Positions 1 to 64,000 of a stretch of DNA of 64,000 nucleotides are shown piece by piece. Positions within the stretch are counted from its first letter, which is position 1. Every line of letters starts with the position of its first letter. The translations under genes and the position numbers were made by a program. The stretch comes from a virus (lineage: Duplodnaviria; Caudoviricetes), in IMG/VR virus record IMGVR_UViG_3300020471_000006, positions 1 to 64,000 of that record; one strand, written 5' to 3'. The notes beneath the pieces are model-generated. The model was not told the DNA's origin. It did no database searches and saw only the letters and a list, made by a program, of their open reading frames with translations.

Positions 1-122
1 TGCCCACTAATGTTACAACTGATCCCTCAGTTAAAGCCTTGCGTGAGTTGGCTTACTTACCAAAAGGAGAGATGGATCCCCATGAAGTACCCGATAGCGA
101 ACCACGTGTAGGTGCAAGATGA
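1..122 (+). CDS. 3' end of hypothetical protein (truncated by window start)
   Basis: Open frame from position 3 to TGA 120-122, overlapping the next ATG (ATGA). Confidence 0.6.
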
Positions 123-301
123 CTTTTCTATTTTTGTTATTCAAACCCTTACTATTCTTAATGGTAAGGAAGGTATTTAAAAAACAGATGAAAGTTTTCG
201 CTGTAGAGATGCTCGAAGATTTTGCTCAGTCCACAGATAACGATGTGGATGACCAACTCGTAGCCAGAGTCAAGAAGGCTATGAGATTGGGGGCGGTATA
301 A
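119..301 (+). CDS. small hypothetical protein with hydrophobic N-terminus
   Basis: 60 aa ORF coupled to the upstream stop. Confidence 0.65.
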
Positions 302-304
302 ATA
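297..304 (+). promoter_or_regulatory. T4-type late promoter
   Basis: Exact TATAAATA 35 nt before ATG 340. Confidence 0.75.
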
Positions 305-339
305 AGTTGTAGAAATGGTAATTTATTCGGAGAGTATCA

Positions 340-1179
340 ATGTCTCTATACGGTAGTACCGATAGTAATGCTAACAAAACCAAAGCTGGGATTGGTGTTG
401 CTTCGGATTCACAAACAAAAACAATAGTTTATATTGACGAAACAGAAGCAGCACTTGAGCAGAATAAGAAGCGAGGGTTGAATGCTCCTGGTTGGTGGTC
501 ATACTTCACTTATAACGATAGCTCAGGTAGAGCACGTCATAAAGCAGAGCAGATGGTGTTCATCGCTGGTGGTGAAGCAAACTCTGGAGAGACACAATCA
601 GACGATACACTCGCTGGTGACTTCCTTTCTACAGTTTCTATTGGTACACAACCTTCTGATGCATCGGTTGCTGCTACTAACACACAGAACTTCTCAGTTG
701 TTGTTACTCCAACAGGTGAAGCATCCGCAATTGATGGTGCTGCCAACGCTGGAAACACAGCAGGAAGAACTGCTGGTACATATACTGCAATAGCAGCAAC
801 AGGTGGTACTGGATCAGGTGCTACTGTTACTCTTGTAGTTGATGCTAACGGTGCTGCTACTCCTACACTAGTAAGTAAGGGTGGTGGATACACTGACAAT
901 GACACATTGACACTCAGCAGAACTGGTACATATGGTGGTGCTTCAGACGTTACAGTTAATGTAAATGGAGTAGGTGCTACAGCAACATATCAGTGGCAGG
1001 TCAGCACAGATGGTGTTAACTTCGCTGATGTTACAACTGGAACCAATGATACTACTGCTACATACACAACAGCAGCAACAGCCGCTGGTGACAATGGTAA
1101 CAAGTACAGATGTGTAGTTGGAACCTCACAGGGTGCAACTCCTGTGATCTCAAGTGCTGCCACATTAACAGTTACATAA
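340..1179 (+). CDS. virion structural protein with C-terminal Ig-like domain
   Basis: TQPSD...YQWQ...YRCVV...SSAATLTV Ig pattern; late promoter; GGAG RBS. Confidence 0.75.
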   Translation: MSLYGSTDSNANKTKAGIGVASDSQTKTIVYIDETEAALEQNKKRGLNAPGWWSYFTYNDSSGRARHKAEQMVFIAGGEANSGETQSDDTLAGDFLSTVSIGTQPSDASVAATNTQNFSVVVTPTGEASAIDGAANAGNTAGRTAGTYTAIAATGGTGSGATVTLVVDANGAATPTLVSKGGGYTDNDTLTLSRTGTYGGASDVTVNVNGVGATATYQWQVSTDGVNFADVTTGTNDTTATYTTAATAAGDNGNKYRCVVGTSQGATPVISSAATLTVT

Positions 1180-3657: not shown

Positions 3658-5993
3658 GCAACGGCATTAAAGTAGTTAAACGAGACGGTGAGGTAGAACC
3701 TCTCAACCTTGACAAAATCCATAAGGTAGTAGAAGATGCCTGTGAAGGATTAGGAAGCGGTGTGAGTGCCTCACAGGTTGAAATGAACTCAGGTTTACAG
3801 TTTTATGATGGTATCAAAACACAAGACATCCAAGAAATATTGATTAGATCAGCGAGTGATCTGATTGATATAGAACATTACAATTATCAATACGTTGCAG
3901 CAAGGTTATTGTTGTTTACTTTATATAAAGAAGTTCATGGTCCACAGTGGATGGAAAATCATCCACATATTTCTGATCATATTTCAGGATGTATTAAGAA
4001 AGGTGTCTATGATCATGACATTGTAGCTAAGTATACAACAGAAGAGTGGGATAAGATTAACTCATGGATCGATCATGACCGTGATATGCTTTTCACTTAT
4101 GCTGGTCTTCGACAGGTAGCAGATAAGTATCTTGTACAAGATAGAAGTGTAAACTCAGTCTATGAGACACCTCAGTACATGTATATAATGATTGCTGCTA
4201 CATTATTTTCAAACTATTCTACAGATGTAAGGCTTAATTATGTCAAAAACTACTACGACGCAATCAGCAGACACAAAATCAACATCCCAACGCCCATTAT
4301 GGCAGGTGTCAGAACACCCATACGTCAATTTGCATCTTGTGTTCTGGTTGATTCTGACGATACCCTCGATAGTATCTTTAGCTCTGATATGGCTATTGGG
4401 AAATACGTTGCACAAAGGGCTGGTATCGGCATTAACGCTGGAAGAATCAGAGGAATCAACTCTCGAATCAGAGGTGGAGAGGTTCAGCACACAGGTGTTG
4501 TACCCTTCCTTAAGAAATTTGAGTCTACTGTCAGATGTTGTACGCAGAACGGGATCCGTGGCGGCTCAGCAACTGTCCACTTTCCGATCTGGCATCAAGA
4601 AATCGAAGACATCCTCGTCCTCAAAAACAACAAAGGAACAGAAGACAACCGAGTCAGAAAGCTCGACTACTCCATCCAGTTAAGTAAACTATTCTATGAA
4701 AGATTTATTACAAGTGAGGACATTAGCTTATTCTCTCCTCACGATGTTCCTGGTCTATATGATGCTTTCGGAACTGATGGTTTTGACGAACTCTACAGAC
4801 AATATGAGTCCGACCAGACCATCCCTAGAAAGACTATTGCTGCCCAAGAATTAATTCTTGATCTTCTTAAGGAGAGAGCAGAGACTGGTCGTATTTACAT
4901 AATGAATATCGATCACTGCAATGAGCATTCATCTTTTAAAGACAAGGTTACCATGAGTAACCTATGTCAAGAGATTACTTTACCTACTACACCTATCCAA
5001 CATATCGATGGTGGTGGTGAGATAGCACTGTGTATACTATCTGCTATCAATGTAGGTAAACTACGTAACCTTGAGGAGATGGAAGAACTATGTGACCTTG
5101 CTGTACGTGGACTGGAAGAGTTGATTGACTATCAACAGTATCCAGTTGAAGCAGCAGAAAAATCTACTCTAGCACGTAGGTCATTAGGTGTAGGATTCAT
5201 TGGATTAGCACACTATCTTGCGAAGCAAGGTGTTAAGTATGAGGATCCACAAGCATGGAAACTGGTACATGATTTGACTGAATCATTCCAATACTATCTA
5301 CTTAAATCATCTAATCAGATTGCTAAGGATAAAGGACCATGTGACTACTTCGAACGTACTAAGTATGCTGATGGTATTCTACCTATAGATACTTACAAAA
5401 AGGATGTAGATGAATTGGTTCCAAACGAACTTCACTGTGACTGGGAAGGACTCAGAGGATCCATTGCTATGCATGGACTCAGACATAGCACTCTATCTGC
5501 ACAGATGCCATCCGAATCATCTTCGGTTGTTTCCAATGCTACAAATGGTATTGAACCACCCAGAGATTATCTCTCAGTCAAGAAGTCTAAGAAAGGACCA
5601 CTTAAGCAAGTTGTACCACAGATTGCATCCCTTAAGAACAATTATACGTTGCTCTGGGATATGCCTAGCAATACTGGGTATATTAATATTGTTGCTGTTA
5701 TGCAGAAGTTCTTTGATCAAGCAATTTCTGGAAACTGGTCCTATAATCCAGAGCATTTCGAAAACTCTGAAGTACCTACTTCGGTGATGGCACAAGACCT
5801 TCTTACCACATACAAGTATGGTTGGAAGACCTCTTACTATCAGAATACATATGATAGTAAGAAAGATATAGATGAACCTGCACATCCAATAGGATGGAAG
5901 GATAATTTGCCAGATGAAAAGCAAAGTATGGTTAATCTACTTGATGATATATTTTCTACTGAAGAGGAGGCGTGTGAAAGCTGTGCGATCTGA
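3654..5993 (+). CDS. nrdA: ribonucleotide reductase class Ia alpha subunit
   Basis: ATP cone VVKRDG, FASCVL, SNLCQEI, KTSYYQ, C-terminal CESC. Confidence 0.98.
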   Translation: MSNGIKVVKRDGEVEPLNLDKIHKVVEDACEGLGSGVSASQVEMNSGLQFYDGIKTQDIQEILIRSASDLIDIEHYNYQYVAARLLLFTLYKEVHGPQWMENHPHISDHISGCIKKGVYDHDIVAKYTTEEWDKINSWIDHDRDMLFTYAGLRQVADKYLVQDRSVNSVYETPQYMYIMIAATLFSNYSTDVRLNYVKNYYDAISRHKINIPTPIMAGVRTPIRQFASCVLVDSDDTLDSIFSSDMAIGKYVAQRAGIGINAGRIRGINSRIRGGEVQHTGVVPFLKKFESTVRCCTQNGIRGGSATVHFPIWHQEIEDILVLKNNKGTEDNRVRKLDYSIQLSKLFYERFITSEDISLFSPHDVPGLYDAFGTDGFDELYRQYESDQTIPRKTIAAQELILDLLKERAETGRIYIMNIDHCNEHSSFKDKVTMSNLCQEITLPTTPIQHIDGGGEIALCILSAINVGKLRNLEEMEELCDLAVRGLEELIDYQQYPVEAAEKSTLARRSLGVGFIGLAHYLAKQGVKYEDPQAWKLVHDLTESFQYYLLKSSNQIAKDKGPCDYFERTKYADGILPIDTYKKDVDELVPNELHCDWEGLRGSIAMHGLRHSTLSAQMPSESSSVVSNATNGIEPPRDYLSVKKSKKGPLKQVVPQIASLKNNYTLLWDMPSNTGYINIVAVMQKFFDQAISGNWSYNPEHFENSEVPTSVMAQDLLTTYKYGWKTSYYQNTYDSKKDIDEPAHPIGWKDNLPDEKQSMVNLLDDIFSTEEEACESCAI

Positions 5994-46781: not shown

Positions 46782-49622
46782 ATGGAAGGACTTAATCAAT
46801 TATATCCAATTCACCAAATTGGATCCGACGGGTTCGCCTGGTGGATCGGACAGGTTGAGTCGCCTATGCATTCTCAGGACGGCGAAGAGAATAAAGATCA
46901 GAAACGTTCTGGAAGATATAAAGTCAGGATTATAGGACATCATCCTAGATCATGTAATGCAGTAAAGAGTTCGGATTTACCATGGGCAATCACTATGATG
47001 CCTGTGACTACTCCGTATTCATCTGGTGCTGTGCGTTCAGCAACGCCACAGTTGGAGCCAGGTGATTGGGTTATAGGGTTCTTTTTAGACAAAGAACAGC
47101 AGCAACCTGTTATCATGGGATCTATTGGACAGGTCGCTAATTCTGGAACACCACCAGGAGAAGATCCTAATCCTGGAGAAGGTTGTAAGAGTCTTACAAC
47201 ATTTGTTGATGAAAATAAGAGACAACTAGATCAAGAAGTAAATGAAGTTGTTGAGTTTAGTGTTACTGATGCAGGTGTACCTTTAGATGGTACTAAATCT
47301 GAGGGAATTACTGATGGTGTTAATAATCTAACCATAGCAAAGTTTGCTGATGCATCGGAATCTAATAGAGCAGGTATCAACTTTACAGTTGAAGTTGCTG
47401 ATAAGTGTCCTGAGTTGCAGGGAAAGTTTAAACGTCTCTTAAGTGAGATGCTTCGTGATACTCAACAGAGTAATGGTCAGTTAGGAACATATGTTGTTAA
47501 CCAGTGGACTGGTCAGATTACTGACTATGTTGATATTGGTAGAAAATATGTAAATAAAGCTGTACTTATTATCAAGAAATTCATTGCTAAAGTTAAGGGA
47601 TTTGTATTAGAGAAGATTAAGAGAGTAGTTGATGATATTGTTAAAGCAATTCTATCACCAAGTGAAACTGGTAATAGATTGACTCCAGTGACAAAGTGGT
47701 TCAATAATATGTTATCAGATCTTGGATGTTCTATGGCAGATCTGGGATTGCGTTTAGAGAAGTTCTTAGAGGATCTTATCTTTGGTTATTTGTTTGATAT
47801 CTACAAAGCTGCTGCATGTCAAGTAGACAAGATGGTTAGTGGTATCCTTAATAAGATTCAGTCTTTGATGGAAGATTTACTATCCAGTATTCTTGGTCCT
47901 CTACAAGCTTTACTTGGTGCTATAGCATCACCACTCAATATGATTGGTGAAGCAATCAATTATGTATTGAATCTACTTGGTATCAAGTGTACTGGACCTG
48001 ACAGCAGATGTAATAAGGTCACTTCTGTAACTACTAAGTGTGAAACAGATAAGCGAGAGAATTTCTTAGACAGATTACTAGAAAGTCTACAAGATCCGTG
48101 GGACGGTGCTGGTGAGGATTGGGCTACCTATACATGTGAAGAAGCATATGAAGGTGTTAAGTTAAAGAACACTGAGGTTACATTTGTTGGTGGTAGACAA
48201 AAGACAGATGGATTGGAAGATAGGATAACATATAATATTAGTGACATACGTGTTAAGGAAGGTGATATAGCAAAGTTTGAAGTTATTAGAACTGGCAAGA
48301 CTGATATTGCTTCTAGTGTTTTCTGGAGAACTATAGAAGGTACGGCAGAGTATGTGACTGATTTTGAAGAAGGAAGTGGGACAGTAGGATTCTCTATAGG
48401 AGAAACGAAAAAGTTTATTGAAGTGAGAACACTTTATTCTGATGAGATAGAAGGTTCGGAAGATTTCTTTGTGTCATTGAGACCAGGAACTCCTGGTGTA
48501 GTCACTAGGTCATTTATCAGTAGTCTTGCTAGATGTGTTATTAACAAATCTAATATAGGATCTAGTTCAGATCCAAATGTAGATCTAGATGACACACCAC
48601 CTACTCCATCAAGGAATGCAAATGATCCTAATAATTTTGAATTTGGAGAAGTATTTGAATCACTAGCGAATGATAATGATAGTGATACTGTAGAGTCAAC
48701 ACCAGATGGACCAACTTATGCAGTGGAACCTAATAAGAGTTCTGTTGAAGAAGGTGAGTTTGTAACATATACTATAAAAACTACCAATGTTGATAGTGGT
48801 ACTGTATTGCAGTATCAATTATTTGGAGAGGGCATCACTAATTCTGATATTGTTGGTGGTCAGTTGAAAGGTCAGTGTGTTATTGAAGATAATAAATCCT
48901 TAGTTGTGGTTGGTATTGAAGATGATGCTACTATAGAAGGTGATGAGAGACTTATATTTGCTATAAATGGTACAGATGCTAGTGCTACTGTTCTTATTCA
49001 ATCTCAGTTAACAGATTTTGGTAGAGAAGATTTATTGAAAGAGTTAGATCAGTCTGAAGATATTGATAAGACCAATGTTTATACAAAAGCTACTAAACCA
49101 ACAGCAGGAGCACCTATAACAGATCCAAGTGGAGGTATCATACAAGTTCCTATAGAGAATCCTGGTACTGCATACACAGAACCACCTGCTGTCCTTATAA
49201 CAGGTCAAGGGTATGGTGCTGTTGGAATTGCTTTACTTGATAAAAATAGTCAGGTTTCAGAGATTAGGGTGACAAATCCTGGATTTGGGTATAAACTTAA
49301 TGCACCACAGACAGAGCAGAAACGTTGTATTATTGATAGTTTTACAATGTTAACACCTGGCACAGGATATACCAGTGCTCCTAGAGTCTATATTGATGGA
49401 GACTCAGATGTAGCAGAAGCTGTAGTTGAGAGGGGTATGGTTGTTAGTGTCAGAATTAAAAATAGAGAGAAGACATTCACTGAATATCCACGAGTCCAGA
49501 TCATTGGTGGTGGTGGGTATGGTGCAAGGTGGTTACCATCATTCAATTGCTTAAGTACCGAAGCACTTGTTAAAGTTGGATCTGCTAAGATTGGTACTGG
49601 TTCCTATATTGATTGTCCGTAA
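46782..49622 (+). CDS. gp5: gp5-like baseplate hub protein (OB fold, helical region, Calx-beta-like domains)
   Basis: WWIGQVE, GRYKVRI.G.H, DLPWA, V.GFFLD...QQPVIMGS. Confidence 0.85.
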   Translation: MEGLNQLYPIHQIGSDGFAWWIGQVESPMHSQDGEENKDQKRSGRYKVRIIGHHPRSCNAVKSSDLPWAITMMPVTTPYSSGAVRSATPQLEPGDWVIGFFLDKEQQQPVIMGSIGQVANSGTPPGEDPNPGEGCKSLTTFVDENKRQLDQEVNEVVEFSVTDAGVPLDGTKSEGITDGVNNLTIAKFADASESNRAGINFTVEVADKCPELQGKFKRLLSEMLRDTQQSNGQLGTYVVNQWTGQITDYVDIGRKYVNKAVLIIKKFIAKVKGFVLEKIKRVVDDIVKAILSPSETGNRLTPVTKWFNNMLSDLGCSMADLGLRLEKFLEDLIFGYLFDIYKAAACQVDKMVSGILNKIQSLMEDLLSSILGPLQALLGAIASPLNMIGEAINYVLNLLGIKCTGPDSRCNKVTSVTTKCETDKRENFLDRLLESLQDPWDGAGEDWATYTCEEAYEGVKLKNTEVTFVGGRQKTDGLEDRITYNISDIRVKEGDIAKFEVIRTGKTDIASSVFWRTIEGTAEYVTDFEEGSGTVGFSIGETKKFIEVRTLYSDEIEGSEDFFVSLRPGTPGVVTRSFISSLARCVINKSNIGSSSDPNVDLDDTPPTPSRNANDPNNFEFGEVFESLANDNDSDTVESTPDGPTYAVEPNKSSVEEGEFVTYTIKTTNVDSGTVLQYQLFGEGITNSDIVGGQLKGQCVIEDNKSLVVVGIEDDATIEGDERLIFAINGTDASATVLIQSQLTDFGREDLLKELDQSEDIDKTNVYTKATKPTAGAPITDPSGGIIQVPIENPGTAYTEPPAVLITGQGYGAVGIALLDKNSQVSEIRVTNPGFGYKLNAPQTEQKRCIIDSFTMLTPGTGYTSAPRVYIDGDSDVAEAVVERGMVVSVRIKNREKTFTEYPRVQIIGGGGYGARWLPSFNCLSTEALVKVGSAKIGTGSYIDCP

Positions 49623-54070: not shown

Positions 54071-57000
54071 ATGGCATTGACAAGACTTGACAATCTTATT
54101 AGTTCTAAAACTGGTAAGTATTTGTACGTCTCACCTGACGATTTTAACGCAACGGATGAGATTAATAATAGAGGTAACTCCCCTATTAGACCGTTTAAAT
54201 CGATTCAGAGGGCATTTTTAGAGATTTCACGATTCTCTTATCAACCTGGTCCTGATAACGACAGGTTTGATCAATTCACCGTCATGGTGATGCCTGGTAA
54301 ACATTATGTTGATAATAGACCTGGTCTTGCTACTACTGACGGAATTGATGCTTTTGCGTTTGATCAAGCACTTAATCAATGGATTGATAATTCCAATTTA
54401 GACATTGGAGATCCTAATAACTGTCTGTACAAGTTTAATAACACTGAGGGTGGAGCCATAATCCCTCGTGGTTCATCTATTATTGGTTATGATTTACGTA
54501 GAACATCAGTTCATCCACTGTTTGTTCCCGATCCTGCTGACAGGTTAGAAGCTCGCTCTGCTATATTCAATGTTACTGGTGGTTGTTATTTCTGGCAGTT
54601 CACTATTAGAGATGGTGACCTAGAGCCTGCGTCACCATTATATGACAATTCAGAAGGAATTGGTAAAGTTTATTATCAAAATGGTGATTGGACTGCAAAA
54701 GCTGTACCAAACTTCTCTCACCACAAACTGACTGTTTTTGAGTATGCAGACAAAGAAGAATTAGGTCTGTACTACCAGAAAGTTGCTAAAGCATTTTCAC
54801 AATATCAACCAACAATTGATGATCCTCGTGAATTCGGTGATAGAATCGAAGAGACTAGAATTGTTGGTCCTCTATCAGACATTCGTTCTGTTGAGAGTAT
54901 TAAACTTACAGATTCAGCACCTGCTGGAACAATAACAGTTGAAGTAACATCCAAAGTTAATCATGGATACTTCAGGAACCAATTTGTTGCTATTGAGAAC
55001 AATGGTCTAGATGATCAGCTCAATGGTGTGTTCTCTATTTCTGAGATTGATTTAGTTGATCAACGTAAGTTCTCATATAATATACCAGGAACTGTTGGTG
55101 CTCTTGGAACTAGTGCATCTTTGATAAGTGGCACAACTTATACTGCATCAAATGGTTTAGATTCTAATGCTGTAGTTAAGGCAGAGGTTGACTCTGTTGA
55201 ATCTGCATCTCCATACGTCTTTAACTGCTCCATCCGTTCAACATGGGGTATTTGTGGTATCTGGGCAAATGGTTTGAAAACCACTGGTTTCAAATCAATG
55301 GTTATCGCTCAGTATACTGGTGTATCTCTACAGAAAGACGATAGAGCATTCATCAGATATGATGAGTACAGTAACACATTTAATCAAGCATCACTATCAG
55401 ATGCATTTGCTACTGTTCCATATCATACTAAAGGTGATGCATACTGGAAGGATGACTGGAGAAACTTCCACGTTCGTGCATCAGAAGACGCATTCATTCA
55501 GTGTGTTAGTATCTTCGCTGTTGGTTTCGCTGATCACTTCCTAATGGAAAGTGGTGGTGATATGAGTATCACCAACTCTAACAGTAACTTTGGTAATACA
55601 TCACTACATGCTATTGGTCATAAAGGATTTGCCTTTACACAGGATAAAGGTGGATATATTACAGATATTGTTCCTCCACAGGTTGTAGATACAACTACTG
55701 GAAATATCAAGAAGAATGCTTACTATACTATTGATATTCCAGCTACCAAAAATCTTAACAGTGCATCAGACCAGACTAAGATCTATCTTGGAGACGATGA
55801 AGCATTTAATCCAGAGACACGTGTTGCTGCATCTATTGATGGATTCCGTATAGGTGCTAGGTCAGATGAAAAGTTATATGTAAAATTAATTCCTAGATCT
55901 GCTGGAAGTAGTAATATTTTCGAGGCAACATTATCTCCTAATGGATTTAAGAAGTTTAATGCTACTGCAACTATTCTTAATCCTACTGGTATTACAATTA
56001 ACAATAAGGATCTAGATGCTGCTGACCTTATTGAAGCAAACAAAGAGTTTATTGCTTACGAGGCATACGGATATATTACTAATAAGTATCCATACCTCTT
56101 AGATAGAGAAGGTATTGATATTGTCAAGTGTCGTCGTGACATTGGATATTTGCTTGATGCTACTATTCAGGATTTAAGACTTGGTGGTAACATTAATACT
56201 ATTCAAGCTGGTGAATCATACTATGTTGGTAATAACTTATCATACATTACATCAGAACTTACTGAAACTCTAGAAGGTTACGACTACGCTAGAGATCTTG
56301 CTATTGCATCTATACGTAATTTCACATATCTACGTACTGGATCAGAGACAACTGCTGGATCTGCTATTGTTGATGTCGGTGACACAAGTGGTATCGTTCA
56401 AGGTATGACTGTTGCTGACTATGATCCTACTCAGTTTACAGACAACAAACTTAATTCTGGTGCTTCACGTCCTGCATCTCCAGTTATTCCTGATAACACA
56501 TATGTTAAGAGTGTTATCTCATCAACAGAGATTGAACTTGGACAGAAAGCAACATTCTCTAGTAAGAAGGTAATCTCTGATCGTAATGGTGACGCTAGAA
56601 ACCTATTACTTTCAAACAAACTATTCATTGCTGCTGAAGCATTTGATAGGATGGTATTGGATTTCCCATCTTATACTTCACCAACAGGATACGGTCCACA
56701 GGATTGTAGGGATGACTTAGTTGACATCGTTGAAGCAATTGCTGAGAATACTGCTTATGGTGGTAACGATGAAGTATGGGATGCTGCATATCATTATGAT
56801 AGTGGTGCAGTTCAGTATATTTCACAGAAGAAAGAAGAGACCATTCGTGCGATTGAATATGCCAGAGATATGTCTGTGCAGATCATGCGTAATGAGAAGT
56901 CATTCATCTTTGGTAGTCATGGTCTAACTCAAACATATGATAATACTGTCACTTATGAACCACCTGAAGTGGTTAATGACAGAAATGGTGACGCACGTAA

Positions 57001-60000
57001 TCTAATACTTGCTAACAAGCATTTGATTGCTGCTGAATCTGTAGAGAGAATGTTGGTTCGTTCTTCTACTGCTGAGTATACACCAACTGATGCTGAGTAT
57101 GATCCAGCAACAGGTGATTTGACTCTTGATGTTCAGAGTCATGGATTAACTGCTGCTAGTGCTATTACAGCTTCAGATGCAAATTATAATCCTGAAACTG
57201 GTTGGTTGACTATTACATCTAATGGTCATGGTTTAGCTGCTGGTAGTAAGGTTAAGATTGAAGATGAATCATTGACATTGACATGTTCAATGGATGGTGA
57301 TGCTTCTACTCATGTATATCCTAGACCATCTGATCCTATTAGTAATAAGTGGGTTGAAGTTGCTGAGGCAGACACAAATACATTCAGTATTGATGTAGGT
57401 AAGTCTCTATTAATTGGACATAATGTAACTGCTGCTGAATATGTTCCTGCTACTGGATTGTTAACTGCAACTATTCCAGGTCACCAGTTAAGTGAAGGGC
57501 AGAATGTAAGAGTTGAAGACGGAGCATTTACATTTACATGTGCTCAAGATAACTATGGCACACAACATGTTTATCCACGTTCAACTGATCCAGCATATCA
57601 AAGTTCTGTTAAGATTGTAGCAGATGGTTCCAAGCACACAGTTACTGGTGCTGGATACAACCCTGATAAGGGTACTATGGAATTCACCCTTACAAATCAT
57701 GGATTTAGTAATGGTGATAAGATAAGAATTGATGATAATGCATTAGTCTTTACTTGTGCAATGGATGCTAATGCTACTGAGCATTCATATCCACGTAAGT
57801 CTGACCCTATTAGTGGTAAGTGGGTTACTATTACAAACAAAACTAACAATACTTTTGAAGCACATGTTGGAACTACTGGTGCGGTAACATATGATCTTAC
57901 TAACGCACTTTATGATCCTGCAAGTGGTGAGTTAACAGTTAGTGTTGATGGAAACCATGACATTGATGTTGGTGAGAATATTAGATTTGCTGATAATGCA
58001 TTAACATTTACATGTGGTATGGATGGAAATAGTTCTAACCACACATATCCTCGTACAACTGACCCTGCGTATAATACTGGGTTAGAAGTTATAGGTGTTG
58101 GTGGTAACTATGATATTTCTAATGCTAACTACAACCCATCTACAGGTGTACTTGAGTTCACTGTTGCTAATCATGGATTGACAAATGGAGAACTCATTAA
58201 GATTGCCAACAACTCTCTAACATTCACATGTGGCATGGATAATAATGCTTCCGAGCATAAGTATCCACGTGCAACTGATCCTTATTCTGGTGATTGGTTA
58301 TCTGTCTATGATGTAGCACAGAATTCATTTAAAGTTCAGATTGCAGATGCTGGATCTAACGTAGAGTTTACACCAACTGATGCTTCTTATGACCCTGCAA
58401 CTGGTGACTTAGAACTTACTGTTGGTGCTCATAATCTATCTGTTGGTGATGGAATCGTCATGGATGACGGTGCTGTATCCTTCACTTGCACAATGGACAA
58501 CAACCAAGTTGCTCAGTCATATCCACGTGCAAACTTAGATAAAGCTTCTGGAAGATCTCTTCCAATTACCTCAGTTGATACAGGTAAGTTTACAATTAAT
58601 GTAGGTGCTGCTGGTTCTAATAAGAACTTAACTCCTACTGGTGCAACATACAATCAGAACAATGGTGAGATGGTTCTTACTGTTGGTCAGCATGGATTGC
58701 GTGTTGGTACTGATATTACATTAAAAGATAACTCATTAACATTCACTTGTGATAAAGATGGTGGTGCTACTCAGCATTCATATCCTAGACCTGGTACTGA
58801 CCCTTATGCTGGTAAGTCAATTGCTATTACAGCAGTTGGTTCTTCACAACATACAGCAACTAATGTTGCATACACACCTTCTAGTGGTGTTATGGTTGTT
58901 ACTGTTCCTAGTCATGGATTCTCACCAGGAGATTACATTCAGGTAGCAGATAATTCTATTACATTAACATGTGATTTAGATGGTAACGTAAGTCAGAAGA
59001 CATATCCACGTACTAACTTTGATTCACTAAGCAACAGGTGGGTTCCTATCCTATCAGCAAGCACTGATACCTTTACTATTAATGTTGGTTCTTCTACTGA
59101 TAATTCAGTACACACATTTGTATCTGCTTCTGCTAATGGTATCTTAAAGCAAGACGGAACACTAACAATTAATGTTGGTTTCGATGCTGATCCTGCTAAC
59201 AGATATGCTCACACATTTGTATCTGCTCTTACCGATGCTGTAGAATATAAGCCTCAGTCAGCACATACATTCGTATCTGCATTAACAAATTCAGTTAAGC
59301 ATCTACCACAGTCTGCTCATACATTTAAGAGAGCAGCTAACTATGCTATCTCCAAGAGAGGTGGTGACATCACAGTTAATGTTGGTAAGTCTCCTATTGT
59401 AGAGTTCACACCAACTAATGCTACCTATGATCCTAACACAGGATTGATGGAATTAACTATAGGTAGTCACAGTTTAACTGCTGGCACAAGTGTTAAGGTT
59501 GATCCTAATTCTCTCAAGTTTACTTGTGAGATGGATGGAAACTATAGTGTCAAGTCTTATCCTCGTGCTACTGACCCTGTAAATGATACTTCTATTGAAA
59601 TTACAGCAGCGTCAGCTACAACTATTACTATTAATGTTGGTCAATCTCCAATAGTAAGTCACAATGTTGATGATGGTTCATACAACCCTGCAACAGGTGA
59701 GATGACCTTGAAGATTGGAAACCATAGTCTAACTGTTGGTGAGTCAATCAAGATTGCTGATGGTGGTGTAACATTCAGTTGTACTTATGGTAATGTTCCA
59801 CATACCTTTATAACTGGTGCTGCTGGTGGTATTACTGCTGATGGTAGCACAGCATTGACAGCAGCTTCTGGAACAACATACGATCCTATCACAGGTGAAT
59901 TGGTTCTTGAAGTTGGAGCACATGCTTTGAATGCTGCTTCTACACATACAGTAACAGACGCAACATATAATGCTGCAACTGGTGCTATGGTTGTTACCAT

Positions 60001-63000
60001 TGCTAATCATGGATTTAGTAATGGTGATAGAGTTAAATTTGCTGAGGGTTCCATATCACTTAACTGTGCTATGGATGGTAATGTTTCTACTAAGACATAC
60101 CCACGCAGATCTGATCCTACATTCGGTAAGTGGTTACAAATCTCTAATGTAACTCAAGATTCATTCTCAGTTGATGTTGGTTCATCTCCATTAATACAGC
60201 ATACACCTACAGGTGCAAATTATAATCCTACCACTGGTATAATGGAACTTACCATTGGTGCTCATAGTTTGACTGTTGGTACTGCTGTTAAGATTGCAGA
60301 TAACTCTCTAACATTCACTTGTGCTGAAGATAATCATCAAACAACACACACTTATCCTCGTGCAACTGATCCATTCTCTGATAAATCATTTGCTATTACT
60401 GATGTAACTGCTACAACAATTAGTGTTCAGGTATTAAGTACAATCCCATCTACTAATGTTACAGCACACTTATTTGTTTCTGCAACTGCTGACTGTGTTA
60501 CATCTGGTGGAAACTATGCACATACATTTGTTTCTGCAACTGCTAGTGGTCTTAAGAAAGCAAATAGTACAATCACATTTGATCAGGATGCATTAACATT
60601 CACTTGTAATGCTGATAACAACGCTACACAACACACATATCCTCGTGCTGGTGATCCATTCCGTAATGAAACACTAGGTTTAGATTCTGTCACTGGTACA
60701 ACAATGACAGTATTCGTTGGATTCTCTACTGGTAGTCAGAGTGCTAAATCTTATCCTAGATCTGCTACTGAAACACATACAGCTACTGCTGGTACAACAT
60801 ATGATCCAACTACAGGTATATTGAGTGTAACAACTGCTGCTCATAATATCAAGAATGGTGATTATGTTCAGTTTGCTACTGGTGCATTTACCTTCACATG
60901 TATGGAGGATAATAACAGCACCAACCACACATATCCTCGTGTAACTGATCCAGTAAGTAGTAAGTGGTTGAAGGTTTCTAATGTAACTTCAACTACATTT
61001 GAAGTACAAGTATTGGATGTTATTCCTTCTACTAACGTTACTGCTCATACATTCATAACTGGAAGCAACAACGGTATTACTTCTAAGGTTGACAGATCAT
61101 ATGATCAGGCAATAGAAATCACTGGTGTTACTGCTGATACTATTACAGTTAATGTTGGACCTTCAAGCAAGACTACAGACGTACATACTTTCGTATCTGC
61201 ACTAGCAGGTGCTGTTAAGTCTGGTGGTGGATATGTTCATACATTTAAGTCTGCTGATGCAGGTGCTCTTAAGACAGGTGGTAACTATCTACATCAATTT
61301 GTATCTGCTACTAGCGGTGCTTTAATTTCTGGTGGTAACTACGCACATACATTTGTAAGTGCTGTTGCTAATGGATTAACAAGATACGATGGAACAGTAA
61401 CTTTGGATGTTGGTACATCTTCTAACACTACTGCACATCAATTTGTATCTGCTATACCTAATGCAATTACTACTGGTGGAAACTATGCACATACATTCAT
61501 ATCTTCTAATCCAAATGGTATTAAGAAGGCTAATGATCGTATAAGAATTGATTATGGTGCATTGAACTTTACTTGTGACATGGATGGTCACAACAGTCAA
61601 CATGCATATCCACGTATTAGTGACCCTGCATATCAGGAAGATCTACCAGTTCTAGCAGCATCTACTAATCAGTTTACTGTTAATATTGGTACTACAGGTC
61701 AAGGTAATCTTGATGTAAGTGATGCAACTTACAATCCTTCTACTGGTGACATGACAGTCACAGTTGGATCACATGATTTGGAACCAGGTCAAGACGTTAA
61801 GATCATTGGTAACTCTATCAAGTTCTCATGTAATGCAGATAACAATGCTACAGACCATGCTTATCCTAGACCTACTGATCCTGCTGGAACATCATCTCTA
61901 CCTGTTAAGTCAGTTGGTTCTTCTTATCATAGTTCAACAGATGCTTCATACAATCCTTCCACTGGTGATCTAGTTCTTACTGTTGCTAATCATGGATTCA
62001 CTAATGGTGATAGAATTAAAATTGCTGATGGATCACTCACATTTACATGTGATATGGATAACCATGCAACTGAGCATGCATATCCAAGACTTAAGGATCC
62101 TAGCAATGGTAAGTGGTTAGTAATTTCTGATGCAACAACAAATACTTTCAAAGTTAATGTTGGTCAGGCTGGTGCTTCTCAAACATACACACCTACTGCT
62201 GCCACATACACAGCTGCAACTGGTCAGTTAGTATTAACTATTCCTAATCATAACATTCCTGTTGGTAAGAATATTACTATAGCACAGGATTCATTGAAGT
62301 TCCGTTGTGCAATGGGTGGTACTTCTGACATTAAGACTTACCCTCGTTCTAGTGATCCTATCTACTCAACAGGTACAGTAGTTACTGCTGCTGATGCTAC
62401 AACAGTTACAGTTAATGTTGGTGCTTCACCTTTAGTCAGTCACACTCCAACGGATGCATCTTTTGATCCTGCAAATGGTTTGATGACATTGACCATTGGT
62501 TCTCATAACCTAACTGTTGGTGAGTCTGTTAAGATTGCTGATGCTGGAGTTACATTCACATGTGGTCAGGATAATAATGCCACAAACCATGCATATCCTA
62601 GAACAACAATTGAAAGTCATACAGCAACCATGGCTGCCTATGATCCTGATACTGGTATCATTACAGTTACTGTTGCTGGTCACGGAATGCGTGATGGTGA
62701 TTGGGTTAAGTTAGCAGATGATTCTCTAACATTTACATGTGCTCAAGATGCTCATGCTACTAACCACACATACCCAAGAGCATCTGATCCTATCAGTAAC
62801 AAGTGGGTTAAGATTTCTAATACACAGACAAATACATTTGATATTCAAGTATTAGATTCTGCACCTTCAACCAACACTACAGATCATACATTTGTATCTG
62901 CTGTCGCTGGTGGTATTACTCAGAAGAAAGATAAGTCTTATGATTCACCTGTAGATATTACAGCTGTAACAGCAACAACAATTACTCTTGATGTTGGTAA

Positions 63001-64000
63001 GTCTTCTAACACTACTGTTCATGCATTTGTCTCTGCAACTGCTGACGCTATAACCAGTGGTGGTAACTATGGTCATACATTTGTTTCTGCTAATTATGGT
63101 GCTGTAACTGCTGACATAACTGAGAATCTATTTACACCAACAGGAGCAAATTATGATCCTGCAACTGGAGATCTTACTCTAACAATTGGTAGTCATTCTC
63201 TTGCAGTTGGTGATGGTATTACTATTGATGATAACTCACTGACATTCAAGTGTCAGATGGATGAAGAGCAGTCCAATAAACTTTATCCACGTCCAGCATC
63301 TAAAGGTCTTACTGCAACTACTGGTACAACATATAATCCTACAACAGGTATTGTTTCTATTACAACAACTGCTAATCATGGATTAAAAACTGGTGACTTT
63401 GTTAAGATCGCTGATGGTGCTCTAACATTCAGTTGTGGATTTAATGGAGCAACAGGTACTGCTGCTGAGAAATCATATCCACGTCCTAGTGATCCTGTAA
63501 GTGGTACATGGATTAAGGTAACAGAGACAGGTGTTGATTCATTTGAGTTCCAATGTCTTGAAGCTCTACCTTCTACTAACACAGACACACATGCATTTGT
63601 AAGTGGTGTTGCTGATGGAATCACACGTCAGACTGCTACTGATAGAGTATCTGGAAGATCTGTAGATATTATCGCTAGAACTGCAAATACAATTACAGTT
63701 AATGTTGGTGGAGCTGGAGATAACCAGACATGGACACCTTCTGCTGCTGATTATAACTCAACTACTGGTGATCTTATTCTTACAATTGGTCAGCATGGTC
63801 TTCGTGAAGGTGCAGGTATTGTTCTTAAGGATAATTCACTAACCTTTACATGTTCTAAGGATAATCATACTTCTAACCATAGTTACCCACGTCCTGGAAT
63901 AGATCCATATGCAGGTGATAAATCAATCACTGTTAATAGTGTTGGTGCATCTATGCATAGTGTTAGTGGTGCAGAATATACTCCTGAGACAGGTGTTCTT
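54071..64000 (+). CDS. giant virion/fibre protein, at least 3310 aa, truncated by window end
   Basis: Starts MALTRLDNLISSK...LYVSPDDFNA; same frame still open at 64000 (VSGAEYTPETGVL); absent from the ORF track because no stop is reached. Confidence 0.85.
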   Translation, partial: MALTRLDNLISSKTGKYLYVSPDDFNATDEINNRGNSPIRPFKSIQRAFLEISRFSYQPGPDNDRFDQFTVMVMPGKHYVDNRPGLATTDGIDAFAFDQALNQWIDNSNLDIGDPNNCLYKFNNTEGGAIIPRGSSIIGYDLRRTSVHPLFVPDPADRLEARSAIFNVTGGCYFWQFTIRDGDLEPASPLYDNSEGIGKVYYQNGDWTAKAVPNFSHHKLTVFEYADKEELGLYYQKVAKAFSQYQPTIDDPREFGDRIEETRIVGPLSDIRSVESIKLTDSAPAGTITVEVTSKVNHGYFRNQFVAIENNGLDDQLNGVFSISEIDLVDQRKFSYNIPGTVGALGTSASLISGTTYTASNGLDSNAVVKAEVDSVESASPYVFNCSIRSTWGICGIWANGLKTTGFKSMVIAQYTGVSLQKDDRAFIRYDEYSNTFNQASLSDAFATVPYHTKGDAYWKDDWRNFHVRASEDAFIQCVSIFAVGFADHFLMESGGDMSITNSNSNFGNTSLHAIGHKGFAFTQDKGGYITDIVPPQVVDTTTGNIKKNAYYTIDIPATKNLNSASDQTKIYLGDDEAFNPETRVAASIDGFRIGARSDEKLYVKLIPRSAGSSNIFEATLSPNGFKKFNATATILNPTGITINNKDLDAADLIEANKEFIAYEAYGYITNKYPYLLDREGIDIVKCRRDIGYLLDATIQDLRLGGNINTIQAGESYYVGNNLSYITSELTETLEGYDYARDLAIASIRNFTYLRTGSETTAGSAIVDVGDTSGIVQGMTVADYDPTQFTDNKLNSGASRPASPVIPDNTYVKSVISSTEIELGQKATFSSKKVISDRNGDARNLLLSNKLFIAAEAFDRMVLDFPSYTSPTGYGPQDCRDDLVDIVEAIAENTAYGGNDEVWDAAYHYDSGAVQYISQKKEETIRAIEYARDMSVQIMRNEKSFIFGSHGLTQTYDNTVTYEPPEVVNDRNGDARNLILANKHLIAAESVERMLVRSSTAEYTPTDAEYDPATGDLTLDVQSHGLTAASAITASDANYNPETGWLTITSNGHGLAAGSKVKIEDESLTLTCSMDGDASTHVYPRPSDPISNKWVEVAEADTNTFSIDVGKSLLIGHNVTAAEYVPATGLLTATIPGHQLSEGQNVRVEDGAFTFTCAQDNYGTQHVYPRSTDPAYQSSVKIVADGSKHTVTGAGYNPDKGTMEFTLTNHGFSNGDKIRIDDNALVFTCAMDANATEHSYPRKSDPISGKWVTITNKTNNTFEAHVGTTGAVTYDLTNALYDPASGELTVSVDGNHDIDVGENIRFADNALTFTCGMDGNSSNHTYPRTTDPAYNTGLEVIGVGGNYDISNANYNPSTGVLEFTVANHGLTNGELIKIANNSLTFTCGMDNNASEHKYPRATDPYSGDWLSVYDVAQNSFKVQIADAGSNVEFTPTDASYDPATGDLELTVGAHNLSVGDGIVMDDGAVSFTCTMDNNQVAQSYPRANLDKASGRSLPITSVDTGKFTINVGAAGSNKNLTPTGATYNQNNGEMVLTVGQHGLRVGTDITLKDNSLTFTCDKDGGATQHSYPRPGTDPYAGKSIAITAVGSSQHTATNVAYTPSSGVMVVTVPSHGFSPGDYIQVADNSITLTCDLDGNVSQKTYPRTNFDSLSNRWVPILSASTDTFTINVGSSTDNSVHTFVSASANGILKQDGTLTINVGFDADPANRYAHTFVSALTDAVEYKPQSAHTFVSALTNSVKHLPQSAHTFKRAANYAISKRGGDITVNVGKSPIVEFTPTNATYDPNTGLMELTIGSHSLTAGTSVKVDPNSLKFTCEMDGNYSVKSYPRATDPVNDTSIEITAASATTITINVGQSPIVSHNVDDGSYNPATGEMTLKIGNHSLTVGESIKIADGGVTFSCTYGNVPHTFITGAAGGITADGSTALTAASGTTYDPITGELVLEVGAHALNAASTHTVTDATYNAATGAMVVTIANHGFSNGDRVKFAEGSISLNCAMDGNVSTKTYPRRSDPTFGKWLQISNVTQDSFSVDVGSSPLIQHTPTGANYNPTTGIMELTIGAHSLTVGTAVKIADNSLTFTCAEDNHQTTHTYPRATDPFSDKSFAITDVTATTISVQVLSTIPSTNVTAHLFVSATADCVTSGGNYAHTFVSATASGLKKANSTITFDQDALTFTCNADNNATQHTYPRAGDPFRNETLGLDSVTGTTMTVFVGFSTGSQSAKSYPRSATETHTATAGTTYDPTTGILSVTTAAHNIKNGDYVQFATGAFTFTCMEDNNSTNHTYPRVTDPVSSKWLKVSNVTSTTFEVQVLDVIPSTNVTAHTFITGSNNGITSKVDRSYDQAIEITGVTADTITVNVGPSSKTTDVHTFVSALAGAVKSGGGYVHTFKSADAGALKTGGNYLHQFVSATSGALISGGNYAHTFVSAVANGLTRYDGTVTLDVGTSSNTTAHQFVSAIPNAITTGGNYAHTFISSNPNGIKKANDRIRIDYGALNFTCDMDGHNSQHAYPRISDPAYQEDLPVLAASTNQFTVNIGTTGQGNLDVSDATYNPSTGDMTVTVGSHDLEPGQDVKIIGNSIKFSCNADNNATDHAYPRPTDPAGTSSLPVKSVGSSYHSSTDASYNPSTGDLVLTVANHGFTNGDRIKIADGSLTFTCDMDNHATEHAYPRLKDPSNGKWLVISDATTNTFKVNVGQAGASQTYTPTAATYTAATGQLVLTIPNHNIPVGKNITIAQDSLKFRCAMGGTSDIKTYPRSSDPIYSTGTVVTAADATTVTVNVGASPLVSHTPTDASFDPANGLMTLTIGSHNLTVGESVKIADAGVTFTCGQDNNATNHAYPRTTIESHTATMAAYDPDTGIITVTVAGHGMRDGDWVKLADDSLTFTCAQDAHATNHTYPRASDPISNKWVKISNTQTNTFDIQVLDSAPSTNTTDHTFVSAVAGGITQKKDKSYDSPVDITAVTATTITLDVGKSSNTTVHAFVSATADAITSGGNYGHTFVSANYGAVTADITENLFTPTGANYDPATGDLTLTIGSHSLAVGDGITIDDNSLTFKCQMDEEQSNKLYPRPASKGLTATTGTTYNPTTGIVSITTTANHGLKTGDFVKIADGALTFSCGFNGATGTAAEKSYPRPSDPVSGTWIKVTETGVDSFEFQCLEALPSTNTDTHAFVSGVADGITRQTATDRVSGRSVDIIARTANTITVNVGGAGDNQTWTPSAADYNSTTGDLILTIGQHGLREGAGIVLKDNSLTFTCSKDNHTSNHSYPRPGIDPYAGDKSITVNSVGASMHSVSGAEYTPETGVL
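57070..64000 (+). repeat. about 24 copies of a ~95 aa domain (Y.P.TG...HGL...FTC..D...YPR..DP...NVG...HTFVSA)
   Basis: Manual translation; copies are nested, not tandem. Confidence 0.85.

What the first reader, a model, noticed from the sequence alone, without database searches (positions are those of the whole stretch)
57070..64000. Giant virion protein built from recursively nested (Russian-doll) domains
Seen on translation: the ~95 aa repeat has ordered parts A (Y.P.TG..HGL), B (FTC..YPR..DP), C (ITVNVG), D (HTFVSA). Copies are interrupted by other copies and resume exactly where they stopped, like balanced brackets. Copy 1 stops after HGLTAA (~57150) and resumes 4.4 kb later at DRIRIDYGALNFTC (~61540). 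After the innermost copy closes (~59110), closing strands stack: HTFVSA, HTFVSA, HTFKRA (59210-59340), then copy 5 resumes at DITVNVG. A second run of closures at 61180-61530 closes copies 11, 10, 5, 4, 3 (resuming at TVTLDVG) and 2 in reverse order. At least four different insertion points are used (after A, after FTC, after YPR, before or after C). Inference: the chain folds as a branched, tree-like or out-and-back fibre grown by repeated domain-into-domain insertion. I do not know of a described protein nested this deeply. Conserved His and Cys residues may bind metal.
Basis: partly seen in the sequence, partly recalled or inferred. Interest (0 to 1): 0.92.

Follow-up and report, generated by a model that had tools for sequence, protein, structure and literature searches.

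The report
Self-nested beta-barrel tree in cyanophage fibre
A 6,618-residue tail-fibre-type protein of a T4-like marine cyanophage carries 25 copies of one small beta-barrel domain inserted inside each other up to ten deep. The chain runs out through unfinished barrels and finishes them in reverse order on the way back, which is the deepest domain-in-domain build I could find described.

Summary
The ORF runs 54071..73927 (6,618 aa). Residues 1004-3618 hold 25 homologous barrels. Profile-HMM pieces (A, B1, B2, C2, D; 25 each) parse as a perfectly balanced bracket structure: no errors, nothing left open, depth 10. After removing its inserts, every domain is 100-112 aa and matches the whole domain profile.

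An AlphaFold2 model of a four-level nest (pLDDT 92.9, pTM 0.82) places the distant HTFVSA strands inside their predicted barrels. Single solved barrels superpose on model spans 1..422, 85..404, 175..385 and 248..353. The fold resembles the E1-FCCH and endosialidase barrels.

New here:
- Five insertion sites are used.
- One domain is circularly permuted.
- The whole tree sits inside a loop of a helical repeat unit, an eleventh level.
- Homologues carry other trees.

Sites a and b and the permutation rest on sequence evidence plus one weak complex prediction. The metal-binding idea is untested.

The closest known case is the six-level Si3 insertion of cyanobacterial RNA polymerase. I found no description for phage fibres. 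This scan has noted similar nests in five other cyanophage genomes.

The parts
54071..64000 (+). Giant ORF (aa 1-3310 in the window). It continues to nt 73927 of the genome record, 6,618 aa in total.
   Evidence: PHROG tail fibre, short tail fibre and virion structural families.
56969..57079 (+). N-terminal part (aa 967-1003) of helical repeat unit H2, the outermost host. Its other part is aa 3619-3715 (nt 64925-65215, outside the window).
   Evidence: The joined 134 aa align colinearly with intact units H1 (834-965), H3 (3717-3848) and H4 (3850-3985).
57080..57160 (+). Root barrel (copy 1), part A only (aa 1004-1030). It is interrupted after 'HGLTAA' (site a).
   Evidence: HMM positions 4-30; token A.
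57167..61531 (+). First subtree (aa 1033-2487): 14 barrels inserted at site a of the root. It reaches depth 10.
   Evidence: stack parse.
58100..59368 (+). Four-level nest that was modelled (aa 1344-1766): barrels 1350 > 1434 > 1521 > 1594.
   Evidence: AF2 pLDDT 92.9, pTM 0.82. Barrel superpositions span model residues 1..422, 85..404, 175..385 and 248..353.
59108..59395 (+). Closure run 1: D(1594), C2(1521), D(1521), D(1434), D(1350), C2(1277).
   Evidence: The D strands are beta strands in the model.
59648..61228 (+). Most complex region (aa 1860-2386). Barrel 1864 carries a site-b insert (permuted barrel 1930, itself holding 1959 > 2044 at site a) and a site-y insert (2236).
   Evidence: Token order AbDAAbyAbyDDbyyAbyDD. 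AF2 pLDDT 85, pTM 0.56. Barrels at model 97..307, 181..288 and 372..482.
59798..59836 (+). D-type strand 'HTFITG' (aa 1910-1922) placed before part A of barrel 1930, which marks a circular permutation.
   Evidence: The un-permuted rejoined domain matches HMM 5-106 at 86.8 bits. The same module A b [D A b y c] y c D occurs in homologues.
61181..61531 (+). Closure run 2: D of 1864, 1780, 1277 and 1189; then C2 and D of 1117; then D of 1033.
61532..61708 (+). The root barrel resumes with parts B1, B2, C1 and C2 (aa 2488-2546), after the conserved 'KKAN' junction.
   Evidence: HMM positions 29-82. The junction motif is conserved in homologues. Complex prediction gives weak support.
61715..64000 (+). 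Second subtree (aa 2549-3599, continuing to nt 64867): 10 barrels inserted between C2 and D of the root.
62432..63061 (+). Site-y nest: barrel 2791 is interrupted after 'YPRTT' by the complete barrel 2850. It resumes at 'DKSYDSPVDITAV' and closes with D at aa 2983.
   Evidence: HMM 4-60 and 67-106.
63125..63715 (+). Second site-y nest: barrel 3022 is interrupted after 'YPRPAS' by barrel 3081. Its own D lies outside the window (aa 3535).

Best explanation
The gene encodes a giant tail-fibre or baseplate-associated virion protein of a T4-like cyanomyovirus. Between residues 1004 and 3618 it builds a single-chain, branched tree of 25 homologous ~100-residue beta-barrels with an E1-FCCH/endosialidase-barrel-like fold. 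The barrels are joined by recursive insertion, not in tandem.

A barrel is opened at one of five loops:
- a: after the HGL turn
- b: after FTC
- y: after YPR
- c: between strands C1 and C2
- d: before the last strand, D

One or two complete barrels sit in that loop, and they may themselves be opened. The chain therefore runs outward through up to ten unfinished barrels. It then returns and gives each barrel its missing strand(s) in reverse order, about 18 residues per step.

The tree has 6 branch points and 7 tips. It is itself one insertion into a loop of a helical repeat unit, so it is a side arm whose two ends meet at its base.

Inferred, not shown:
- Every neighbouring pair of barrels is joined by two short connections, so the arm is stiff.
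- The arm is shielded from tension along the main axis.
- It must fold from the tips inward.
- It probably serves as a multivalent adhesion arm for the host surface.
For: Sequence:
- The pieces A, B1, B2, C2 and D occur 25 times each and parse as balanced brackets with no error.
- HMM coordinates of split copies are complementary: 4-30 with 29-82, 3-29 with 31-89, and 4-60 with 67-106.
- After excising inserts, all 26 domains are 100-112 aa. Each gives one full-length profile hit of 72-183 bits.

Structure prediction:
- The AF2 model of aa 1344-1766 used an alignment of 67 natural segments with the same architecture. It has pLDDT 92.9 and pTM 0.82.
- Solved single barrels superpose with 66-84 aligned residues on model spans 1..420-423, 85..403-405, 175..384-385 and 248..353. 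These are the four predicted nested spans. Examples are 4hiz_A (Z 8.4, rmsd 1.9 A, 77 aligned) and 4p22_B (Z 8.0, rmsd 2.5 A, 76 aligned).
- In the second model the barrel of domain 1959 spans 97..307 and so includes its distant D strand.
- Root-barrel pieces given as separate chains gave weak support. The score was 0.44 and the best of 3 controls 0.02. That mark was reached by 58 of 80 solved complexes and 2 of 110 mismatched pairs. At 0.60 or under it was reached by only 7 of those 80 and by both mismatches that passed. The runs agree in at least 87% of contacts and the partner's pLDDT is at least 63. My own alignments and three chains were used, unlike the calibration, and likeness to solved barrels may contribute.

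Family:
- 590 giant homologues were found. Orthologues at 98% and 86% identity on independent contigs keep the same 26-domain parse.
- Nested modules recur in the homologues: 100 (d(c)), 115 (c), 29 (a) and 23 (y).
- The permuted b-site module recurs in at least 6 other proteins.

Host and context:
- The helical host unit is restored by joining aa 967-1003 to aa 3619-3715.
- Neighbouring genes encode baseplate hub/lysozyme upstream, and short tail fibre, collar and fibre chaperone downstream.
Against: - All structural evidence is predicted. I had no coordinates and inferred strand membership from the first and last aligned residues of superpositions.
- In model 2 the outer barrel 1864 and the permuted barrel 1930 are only moderately confident (pLDDT 61-80). 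The returning YPR piece scores 38. Neither barrel appears among the 50 listed superpositions. Sites a and b and the permutation therefore rest on sequence plus one weak complex prediction.
- My automatic parser is clean for only 7 of 155 homologues under the strict grammar and 25 of 155 under a relaxed one. In the one case I inspected, the failure was an undetected divergent D strand. I did not resolve the rest.
- Oligomeric state, presence in the virion and function were not tested.
Confidence: 0.85

Rival explanations
1. The ABC units are ordinary tandem domains. The runs of 18-residue HTFVSA units form a separate beta-meander or spine of their own, with no one-to-one link to the barrels.
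For: The D units occur in regular 18-residue tandem runs. DSSP shows each as a 6-residue strand followed by a 3-residue strand, which could be read as hairpins.
Against: - The numbers of D strands and of open barrels match exactly, 25 and 25. Orphan C2, B1 and B2 pieces interrupt the D runs exactly where the stack predicts. 0 of 10^6 shuffles are valid.
- The isolated copy at aa 4047-4149 carries its own D with no other D nearby.
- Barrel superpositions reach the distant D segments in both models.
Confidence: 0.04
2. The strands are exchanged between subunits. In an oligomeric (for example antiparallel) fibre, the D, C2 and B pieces of one chain complete the barrels of a neighbouring chain, as in donor-strand complementation of pili.
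For: Phage fibres are usually oligomers (general knowledge). A balanced count and mirrored order would also fit an antiparallel homodimer. The AF2 monomer model cannot exclude it.
Against: - Innermost copies close contiguously, and the turn-round linkers are only a few residues long. The monomer model is confident and rigid, with pTM 0.82.
- Branching, in which two subtrees sit in one barrel, is hard to satisfy by a simple antiparallel pairing.
Confidence: 0.07
3. The fragments are scars of recombination among tandem repeats, or an assembly artefact, and have no structural meaning.
For: The DNA is repetitive and the sequence comes from a metagenome-type virus record.
Against: - The frame is open for 6,618 codons.
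- Orthologues at 98% and 86% identity on other contigs have the same architecture.
- Every rejoined domain is full length at 100-112 aa.
- The junction motifs are conserved family-wide.
Confidence: 0.02

Closest known systems
Si3 insertion of cyanobacterial RNA polymerase beta' (RpoC2): recursively inserted hybrid-motif (SBHM/HABAS) domains
   Same: Homologous small beta domains are inserted into copies of themselves. This gives a projecting arm made by one chain that goes out and comes back. A 2026 survey of 2.7 million classified domains singles it out as its six-level nested example (PMC13114784).
   Different: Si3 has 8-10 domains, 5-7 insertion events and six levels. This protein has 25 barrels, 24 barrel-in-barrel insertions and ten levels, or eleven counting the helical host. 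The fold is different (E1-FCCH-like barrel). Five insertion sites are used, one domain is circularly permuted, the tree branches, and the setting is a phage fibre protein rather than a polymerase.
Beta-barrel domain of phage endosialidases (phi92 endosialidase 4hiz_A residues 256-340; Pfam End_beta_barrel) and the E1 FCCH domain (4p22_B, 2v31; Pfam E1_FCCH)
   Same: The fold of the single barrel matches: Z 8.4, rmsd 1.9 A, 77 aligned for 4hiz_A, and Z 8.0, rmsd 2.5 A, 76 aligned for 4p22_B. ESM Atlas neighbours carry E1_FCCH and End_beta_barrel. Similar barrels decorate other phage tail proteins, including N4 9lc0_I, lambda 8iyk_J and FCWL1 9jlf_E.
   Different: Sequence membership was not shown. 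E1_FCCH scores 23.2 bits against a cut-off of 29.5. Those domains are single and contiguous. Z values near 8 are in the range the tool calls 'middling'.
Split domains of RTX fibrillar adhesins (AhLap, MpIBP) that project ligand-binding domains
   Same: In a long fibrillar surface protein a domain is split by an inserted domain, which is thereby held out sideways from the axis (PMC12077191). This is a functional analogy for a side arm.
   Different: There the guest is a different, ligand-binding fold and the nesting is one level deep. Here host and guest are the same fold and the nesting is recursive.
Cyanomyovirus 'short tail fiber protein' genes (for example Synechococcus phage ACG-2014i gp028, 12.3 kb)
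   Same: Same gene family and same genome position. The N-terminal region is 81-85% identical in DNA and matches PHROG phrog_4527 and phrog_529.
   Different: The annotation is a name only. I found no published description of the internal architecture.

Membership tests
Recursive (self-nested) domain insertion architecture, as in RNA polymerase Si3 | A host domain's sequence is interrupted by a complete guest domain and resumes afterwards (A1-B-A2) | tested here: met
   Complementary HMM coordinates. All rejoined hosts are full length. Model spans are nested.
Recursive (self-nested) domain insertion architecture, as in RNA polymerase Si3 | The guest is homologous to the host and itself hosts further guests, over several levels | tested here: met
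   All 25 domains match one profile at 72-183 bits. Depth is 10, plus the helical host.
Pfam E1_FCCH (PF16190) | Sequence score at or above the Pfam gathering threshold | tested here: not met
   23.2 bits against a cut-off of 29.5, E 7.2e-05, best stretch aa 3092-3114. Some homologues carry a precomputed PF16190 hit.
Pfam E1_FCCH (PF16190) | Same barrel fold as solved FCCH domains | tested here: met
   4p22_B Z 8.0, rmsd 2.5 A, 76 aligned. 2v31 Z 6.8-6.9.
Endosialidase beta-barrel (Pfam End_beta_barrel, PF12195) | Fold likeness to the barrel of a solved endosialidase, and sequence membership | tested here: inconclusive
   The fold matches: 4hiz_A Z 8.4, rmsd 1.9 A, 77 aligned, and there is an Atlas neighbour with PF12195. 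The Pfam scan lists no PF12195 hit at E<=0.1.
PHROG tail-fibre families (phrog_4527 short tail fiber, phrog_529 and phrog_5342 tail fiber, phrog_701 virion structural) | Significant profile match | tested here: met
   E = 0 to 1e-214. The names are annotations, not tested functions.
T4 gp12-type short tail fibre | Trimeric fibre with a gp12-like receptor-binding tip, attached to the baseplate | not tested
   Only the RefSeq and PHROG name and the gene neighbourhood were seen. No comparison with T4 gp12 was made.
Structural metal (Zn) site joining the pieces of each barrel | Invariant ligands close together in space, and metal present | not testable with these tools
   His26, Cys45 and His94 are 26/26 invariant and Asp48 is 23/26. 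No coordinates were available to measure distances.

The most novel reading that the evidence does not exclude
The array is a single-chain protein 'dendrimer'. An invariant His-Cys-His(-Asp) site in every barrel clasps together three pieces that can lie more than 2,500 residues apart. Folding must therefore proceed from the seven tip barrels inward and wait minutes for the last strands. Phages re-tune host adhesion by adding or removing closed nested modules, which would explain why each lineage has a different tree.
Probability: 0.2. Interest if true: 0.9.

Novelty: new variant of a known kind. Interest (0 to 1): 0.8.

Why it matters
Domain insertion is usually one level deep. A 2026 survey of 2.7 million classified domains highlights a six-level case as its deepest example. 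A 25-domain, ten- to eleven-level branched self-nest would extend the known limits of protein topology.

It raises sharp folding questions. The root barrel cannot close until about 2,600 residues later.

It also offers a natural blueprint for stiff, branched, single-chain scaffolds.

For phage biology, it identifies the real architecture of a large and abundant family of ocean cyanophage 'tail fibre' genes that are currently just names. It points to the tips and the variable tree as likely determinants of host contact.

Tried and rejected
- PDB sequence search with a contiguous barrel gave nothing meaningful.
- A Pfam scan of the C-terminal 3,018 aa found no family.
- Literature searches for a description of this architecture in cyanophage or other phage fibres found none. 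Sullivan 2010 does not discuss the giant gene.
- HMMs built from this protein alone missed tokens in distant homologues. Broadened HMMs parsed only 7 of 155 cleanly under the strict grammar and 25 of 155 under a relaxed three-token grammar. I therefore do not claim that every homologue is balanced.
- I looked for model coordinates in the Python box to compute contacts directly. None are provided.
- For model 2, the top-50 list of superpositions contained no row for barrels 1864 or 1930. This is uninformative, not negative.
- I deliberately left contiguous single domains out of the AF2 alignments. Stretching them over split hosts would have built the hypothesis into the input.
- The tandem-plus-meander reading, the scar reading and the assembly-artefact reading were rejected for the reasons given under rivals.
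Full report
**What and where.** The window is the first 64 kb of a 202,519-bp virus record. Its DNA is closest to T4-like Synechococcus myoviruses, with 80-85% identity over part of the gene.

The finding lies in one ORF that starts at 54071 and is still open at the window's end. In the whole record it runs to 73927 and encodes 6,618 aa.

PHROG profiles name it tail fibre, short tail fibre or virion structural protein. The homologue in phage ACG-2014i is annotated 'short tail fiber protein' at 12.3 kb.

Neighbouring genes encode baseplate hub/tail lysozyme upstream. Downstream lie a short tail fibre, a collar/virion protein and a fibre assembly chaperone. Residue r corresponds to nt 54071+3(r-1).

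**Checking the observation.** I made the check independent of reading by eye.

- I built a profile from six contiguous copies.
- I searched the whole protein with that profile.
- I cut it into sub-profiles: A, B1 (to FTC), B2 (to YPR..DP), C1, C2 and D.

The whole-domain profile matches split copies with complementary coordinates.

| First piece (aa) | HMM positions | Second piece (aa) | HMM positions |
|---|---|---|---|
| 1002-1028 | 4-30 | 2486-2539 | 29-82 |
| 1928-1954 | 3-29 | 2165-2220 | 31-89 |
| 2790-2846 | 4-60 | 2960-2996 | 67-106 |

Between aa 1004 and 3618 there are exactly 25 tokens of each class. A stack parser accepts the order with no error and nothing left open. It yields 25 domains and a maximum depth of 10. 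None of 200,000 full shuffles is valid. None of 1,000,000 shuffles of only the 24 returning tokens is valid.

The last closures (D, D, D, D, C2, D, D at aa 3499-3616) lie outside the window.

When each domain's inserts are cut out in silico, all 26 domains (25 plus an isolated copy at aa 4047-4149) are 100-112 aa long. Each gives a single profile hit covering positions ~3-8 to 103-108 of 108, at 72-183 bits.

**The tree.** The sites are:
- a: after HGL
- b: after FTC
- y: after YPR
- c: between C1 and C2
- d: between C2 and D
- P: permuted

In this notation the tree is (a(d(c(d(c(d(d(c)))d(d(bP(a(d))y))))))d(c(d(d(y))d(yd(cd))))) (with one mis-called site corrected by eye). It has 6 branch points and 7 tips, at 1594, 2044, 2236, 2850, 3081, 3296 and 3413.

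The deepest path is 1004 > 1033 > 1117 > 1189 > 1277 > 1780 > 1864 > 1930 > 1959 > 2044.

Barrel 1930 has no C-terminal D. Instead a D-type strand (aa 1910-1922) precedes its part A. Moving that strand to the end restores a full-length profile match. The same module, A b [D A b y c] y c D, occurs in at least six other family members. I read this as a circular permutation that goes with site b.

**An eleventh level.** The residues just before and after the tree are the two parts of a helical repeat unit. Joining aa 967-1003 to aa 3619-3715 gives 134 aa. These align colinearly with the three intact units H1, H3 and H4 of 132-136 aa. The tree replaces a ~13-residue loop. The whole 2,615-residue array is therefore one insertion, and its two ends meet at its base.

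**Structure, model 1.** For aa 1344-1766 (four levels) I aligned the target with 67 natural segments that have the same three- or four-level architecture. They are ~45-63% identical and colinear. No contiguous domain was stretched over a split one, so the hypothesis was not built into the input.

AlphaFold2 gave pLDDT 92.9 and pTM 0.82. The latter is high for four domains. All four D segments are strands.

In an exhaustive comparison with 48,161 PDB chains, single ~80-residue barrels aligned with 66-84 residues on four spans.

| Model span | Barrel | Example |
|---|---|---|
| 248..353 | innermost, contiguous | 4hiz_A: Z 8.4, rmsd 1.9 A, 77 aligned |
| 175..384-385 | third | - |
| 85..403-405 | second | - |
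| 1..420-423 | outermost | 4p22_B: Z 8.0, rmsd 2.5 A, 76 aligned |

These are exactly the nested spans predicted by the parse. Each span ends at the short strand that follows the corresponding D. A compact barrel superposed at 2-3 A cannot span 420 residues unless the distant strand sits in it.

**Structure, model 2.** For aa 1860-2386 I used BLAST-colinear natural segments. The model has pLDDT 85 and pTM 0.56.

The barrel of domain 1959 spans 97..307 and so includes its distant D. Barrels 2044 and 2236 are contiguous.

The outer barrel 1864 and the permuted barrel 1930 are less confident, at pLDDT 61-80. The returning YPR piece scores 38. Neither barrel appears in the listed rows. Sites a and b and the permutation are therefore not structurally confirmed.

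**Complex prediction.** The verdict was weak support.

- The score was 0.44 and the best of 3 controls 0.02.
- That mark was reached by 58 of 80 solved complexes and 2 of 110 mismatches.
- At 0.60 or under it was reached by only 7 of those 80 and by both mismatches that passed.
- The runs agree in at least 87% of contacts, and the partner's pLDDT is at least 63.
- My own alignments and three chains were used, unlike the calibration.
- Likeness to solved barrels may contribute.

**The fold.** The barrel resembles the E1 FCCH domain and the beta-barrel of phage endosialidases. It also resembles barrels in N4, lambda, FCWL1 and other phage tail proteins, and the EF-Tu domain 2 / FNR FAD-binding type of barrel.

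By sequence, Pfam gives only a sub-threshold E1_FCCH hit of 23.2 bits against a cut-off of 29.5. Z values near 8 are 'middling' by the tool's own note. I therefore claim fold likeness, not family membership.

**Family.** There are 590 proteins of 3,600-8,000 aa that match at E<=1e-10.
- Orthologues at 98% and 86% identity, on independent contigs, keep the same architecture.
- Across about 120 homologues I counted 545 contiguous closed barrels. I also counted 115 (c), 100 (d(c)), 48 (d), 29 (a) and 23 (y) modules.
- The 318-residue triple (d(c)) is a conserved super-repeat. This suggests that already-nested modules are duplicated as units, rather than each insertion arising anew.
- Other lineages have other trees of depth 4-8, for example P0047, P0066, P0100 and P0129.

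My automatic parser is clean for only 7 of 155 homologues (strict) or 25 of 155 (relaxed). In P0005 the apparent open domains were divergent, undetected 'HTFVRT' strands. I did not resolve the remaining cases.

**How it probably works.**

Shown by sequence and prediction: one chain goes out through unfinished barrels and completes them on the way back.

Inferred:
- Each pair of neighbours is linked by two short connections. Outbound linkers are about 6-8 residues and the return step is 18 residues. This fits a rigid model (pTM 0.82) and a stiff arm. I estimate roughly 25-30 nm along the longest path; this was not measured.
- Tension along the main axis would load only the helical host and the root.
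- Folding must be inside-out, with the root barrel waiting about 2,600 residues for its last strand.
- By analogy with barrel and Ig-like decorations of phage tails, and with split domains of RTX adhesins (PMC12077191), the arm most likely makes multivalent, weak contacts with the host surface.

His26, Cys45 and His94 are invariant in 26 of 26 copies, and Asp48 in 23 of 26. They come from parts A, B1 and D. A metal clasp is an attractive idea, but I could not test it.

**Comparison and novelty.** A 2026 survey of insertions among 2.7 million classified domains names the six-level nest of hybrid-motif domains in cyanobacterial RNA polymerase Si3 as its example of extreme nesting. That nest has 8-10 domains and 5-7 insertions (PMC13114784).

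The present case uses the same design principle. It differs in having a different fold, 25 domains, ten levels (eleven with the helical host), five sites, branching and a permutation, and in being a virion fibre protein.

I found no paper describing it. AlphaFold DB, as the fold-search tool notes, lacks viral proteins. This may be why surveys missed it.

Earlier notes of this scan report similar self-nested barrels in five other cyanophage genomes, with the same closest-known case. That agrees with my reading but is not independent evidence.

**Verdict.** It is supported by sequence only for sites a and b and the permutation. Site y also lacks a structural test, because in model 2 only the contiguous guest barrel (2236) was recovered and not its host (1864). 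The metal idea and the function are untested.

Noticed in passing
window 46782-49619 (+), aa ~772-916 of the baseplate hub/tail lysozyme protein: The C-terminal part of the gp5-like hub protein matches the same PHROG families as the barrel array (phrog_701, phrog_5342, phrog_460). The same small barrel probably also decorates the hub protein.
   Followed up: no
genome record nt 76942-81390 (L011:3015-7460), outside the window: A 1,482-aa downstream virion protein matches phrog_701, phrog_460 and phrog_4924 in its first ~290 residues. This may be further copies of the barrel in a second fibre-module protein.
   Followed up: no
genome record nt ~65900-66900 (aa ~3990-4260 of the same ORF), outside the window: The isolated closed barrel (aa 4047-4149) sits between short Cys-containing repeats of about 38 aa ('G[IV]TRT.SVG.CED.RS...KIV.D...P..L.G'). 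These are a separate repeat family that I did not analyse.
   Followed up: no
window 56570-57079 and genome nt 64925-66025 (aa 834-1003, 3619-3985): There are four ~133-aa helical repeat units with the motifs 'GDARNL', 'DC.DD' and 'AYGGND..WDAA'. No Pfam family matches them. Unit 2 hosts the whole barrel tree.
   Followed up: partly
homologue P0005 (6,357 aa), aa 1353-1800 and six further repeats: Seven tandem copies of a four-level nested module. In each, the outermost barrel lacks the YPR motif ('KLPSVGQPAY') and has a divergent last strand 'HTFVRT'. This lineage repeats a closed nest in tandem instead of deepening it.
   Followed up: partly
return junction of site-a inserts, e.g. window 61520-61545 (aa 2484-2491): A conserved '[KWE]-K-A-N' motif follows the guest's last strand wherever a barrel resumes after a site-a insertion. 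It is seen both here (aa 2161-2164, 2485-2488) and across homologues.
   Followed up: partly
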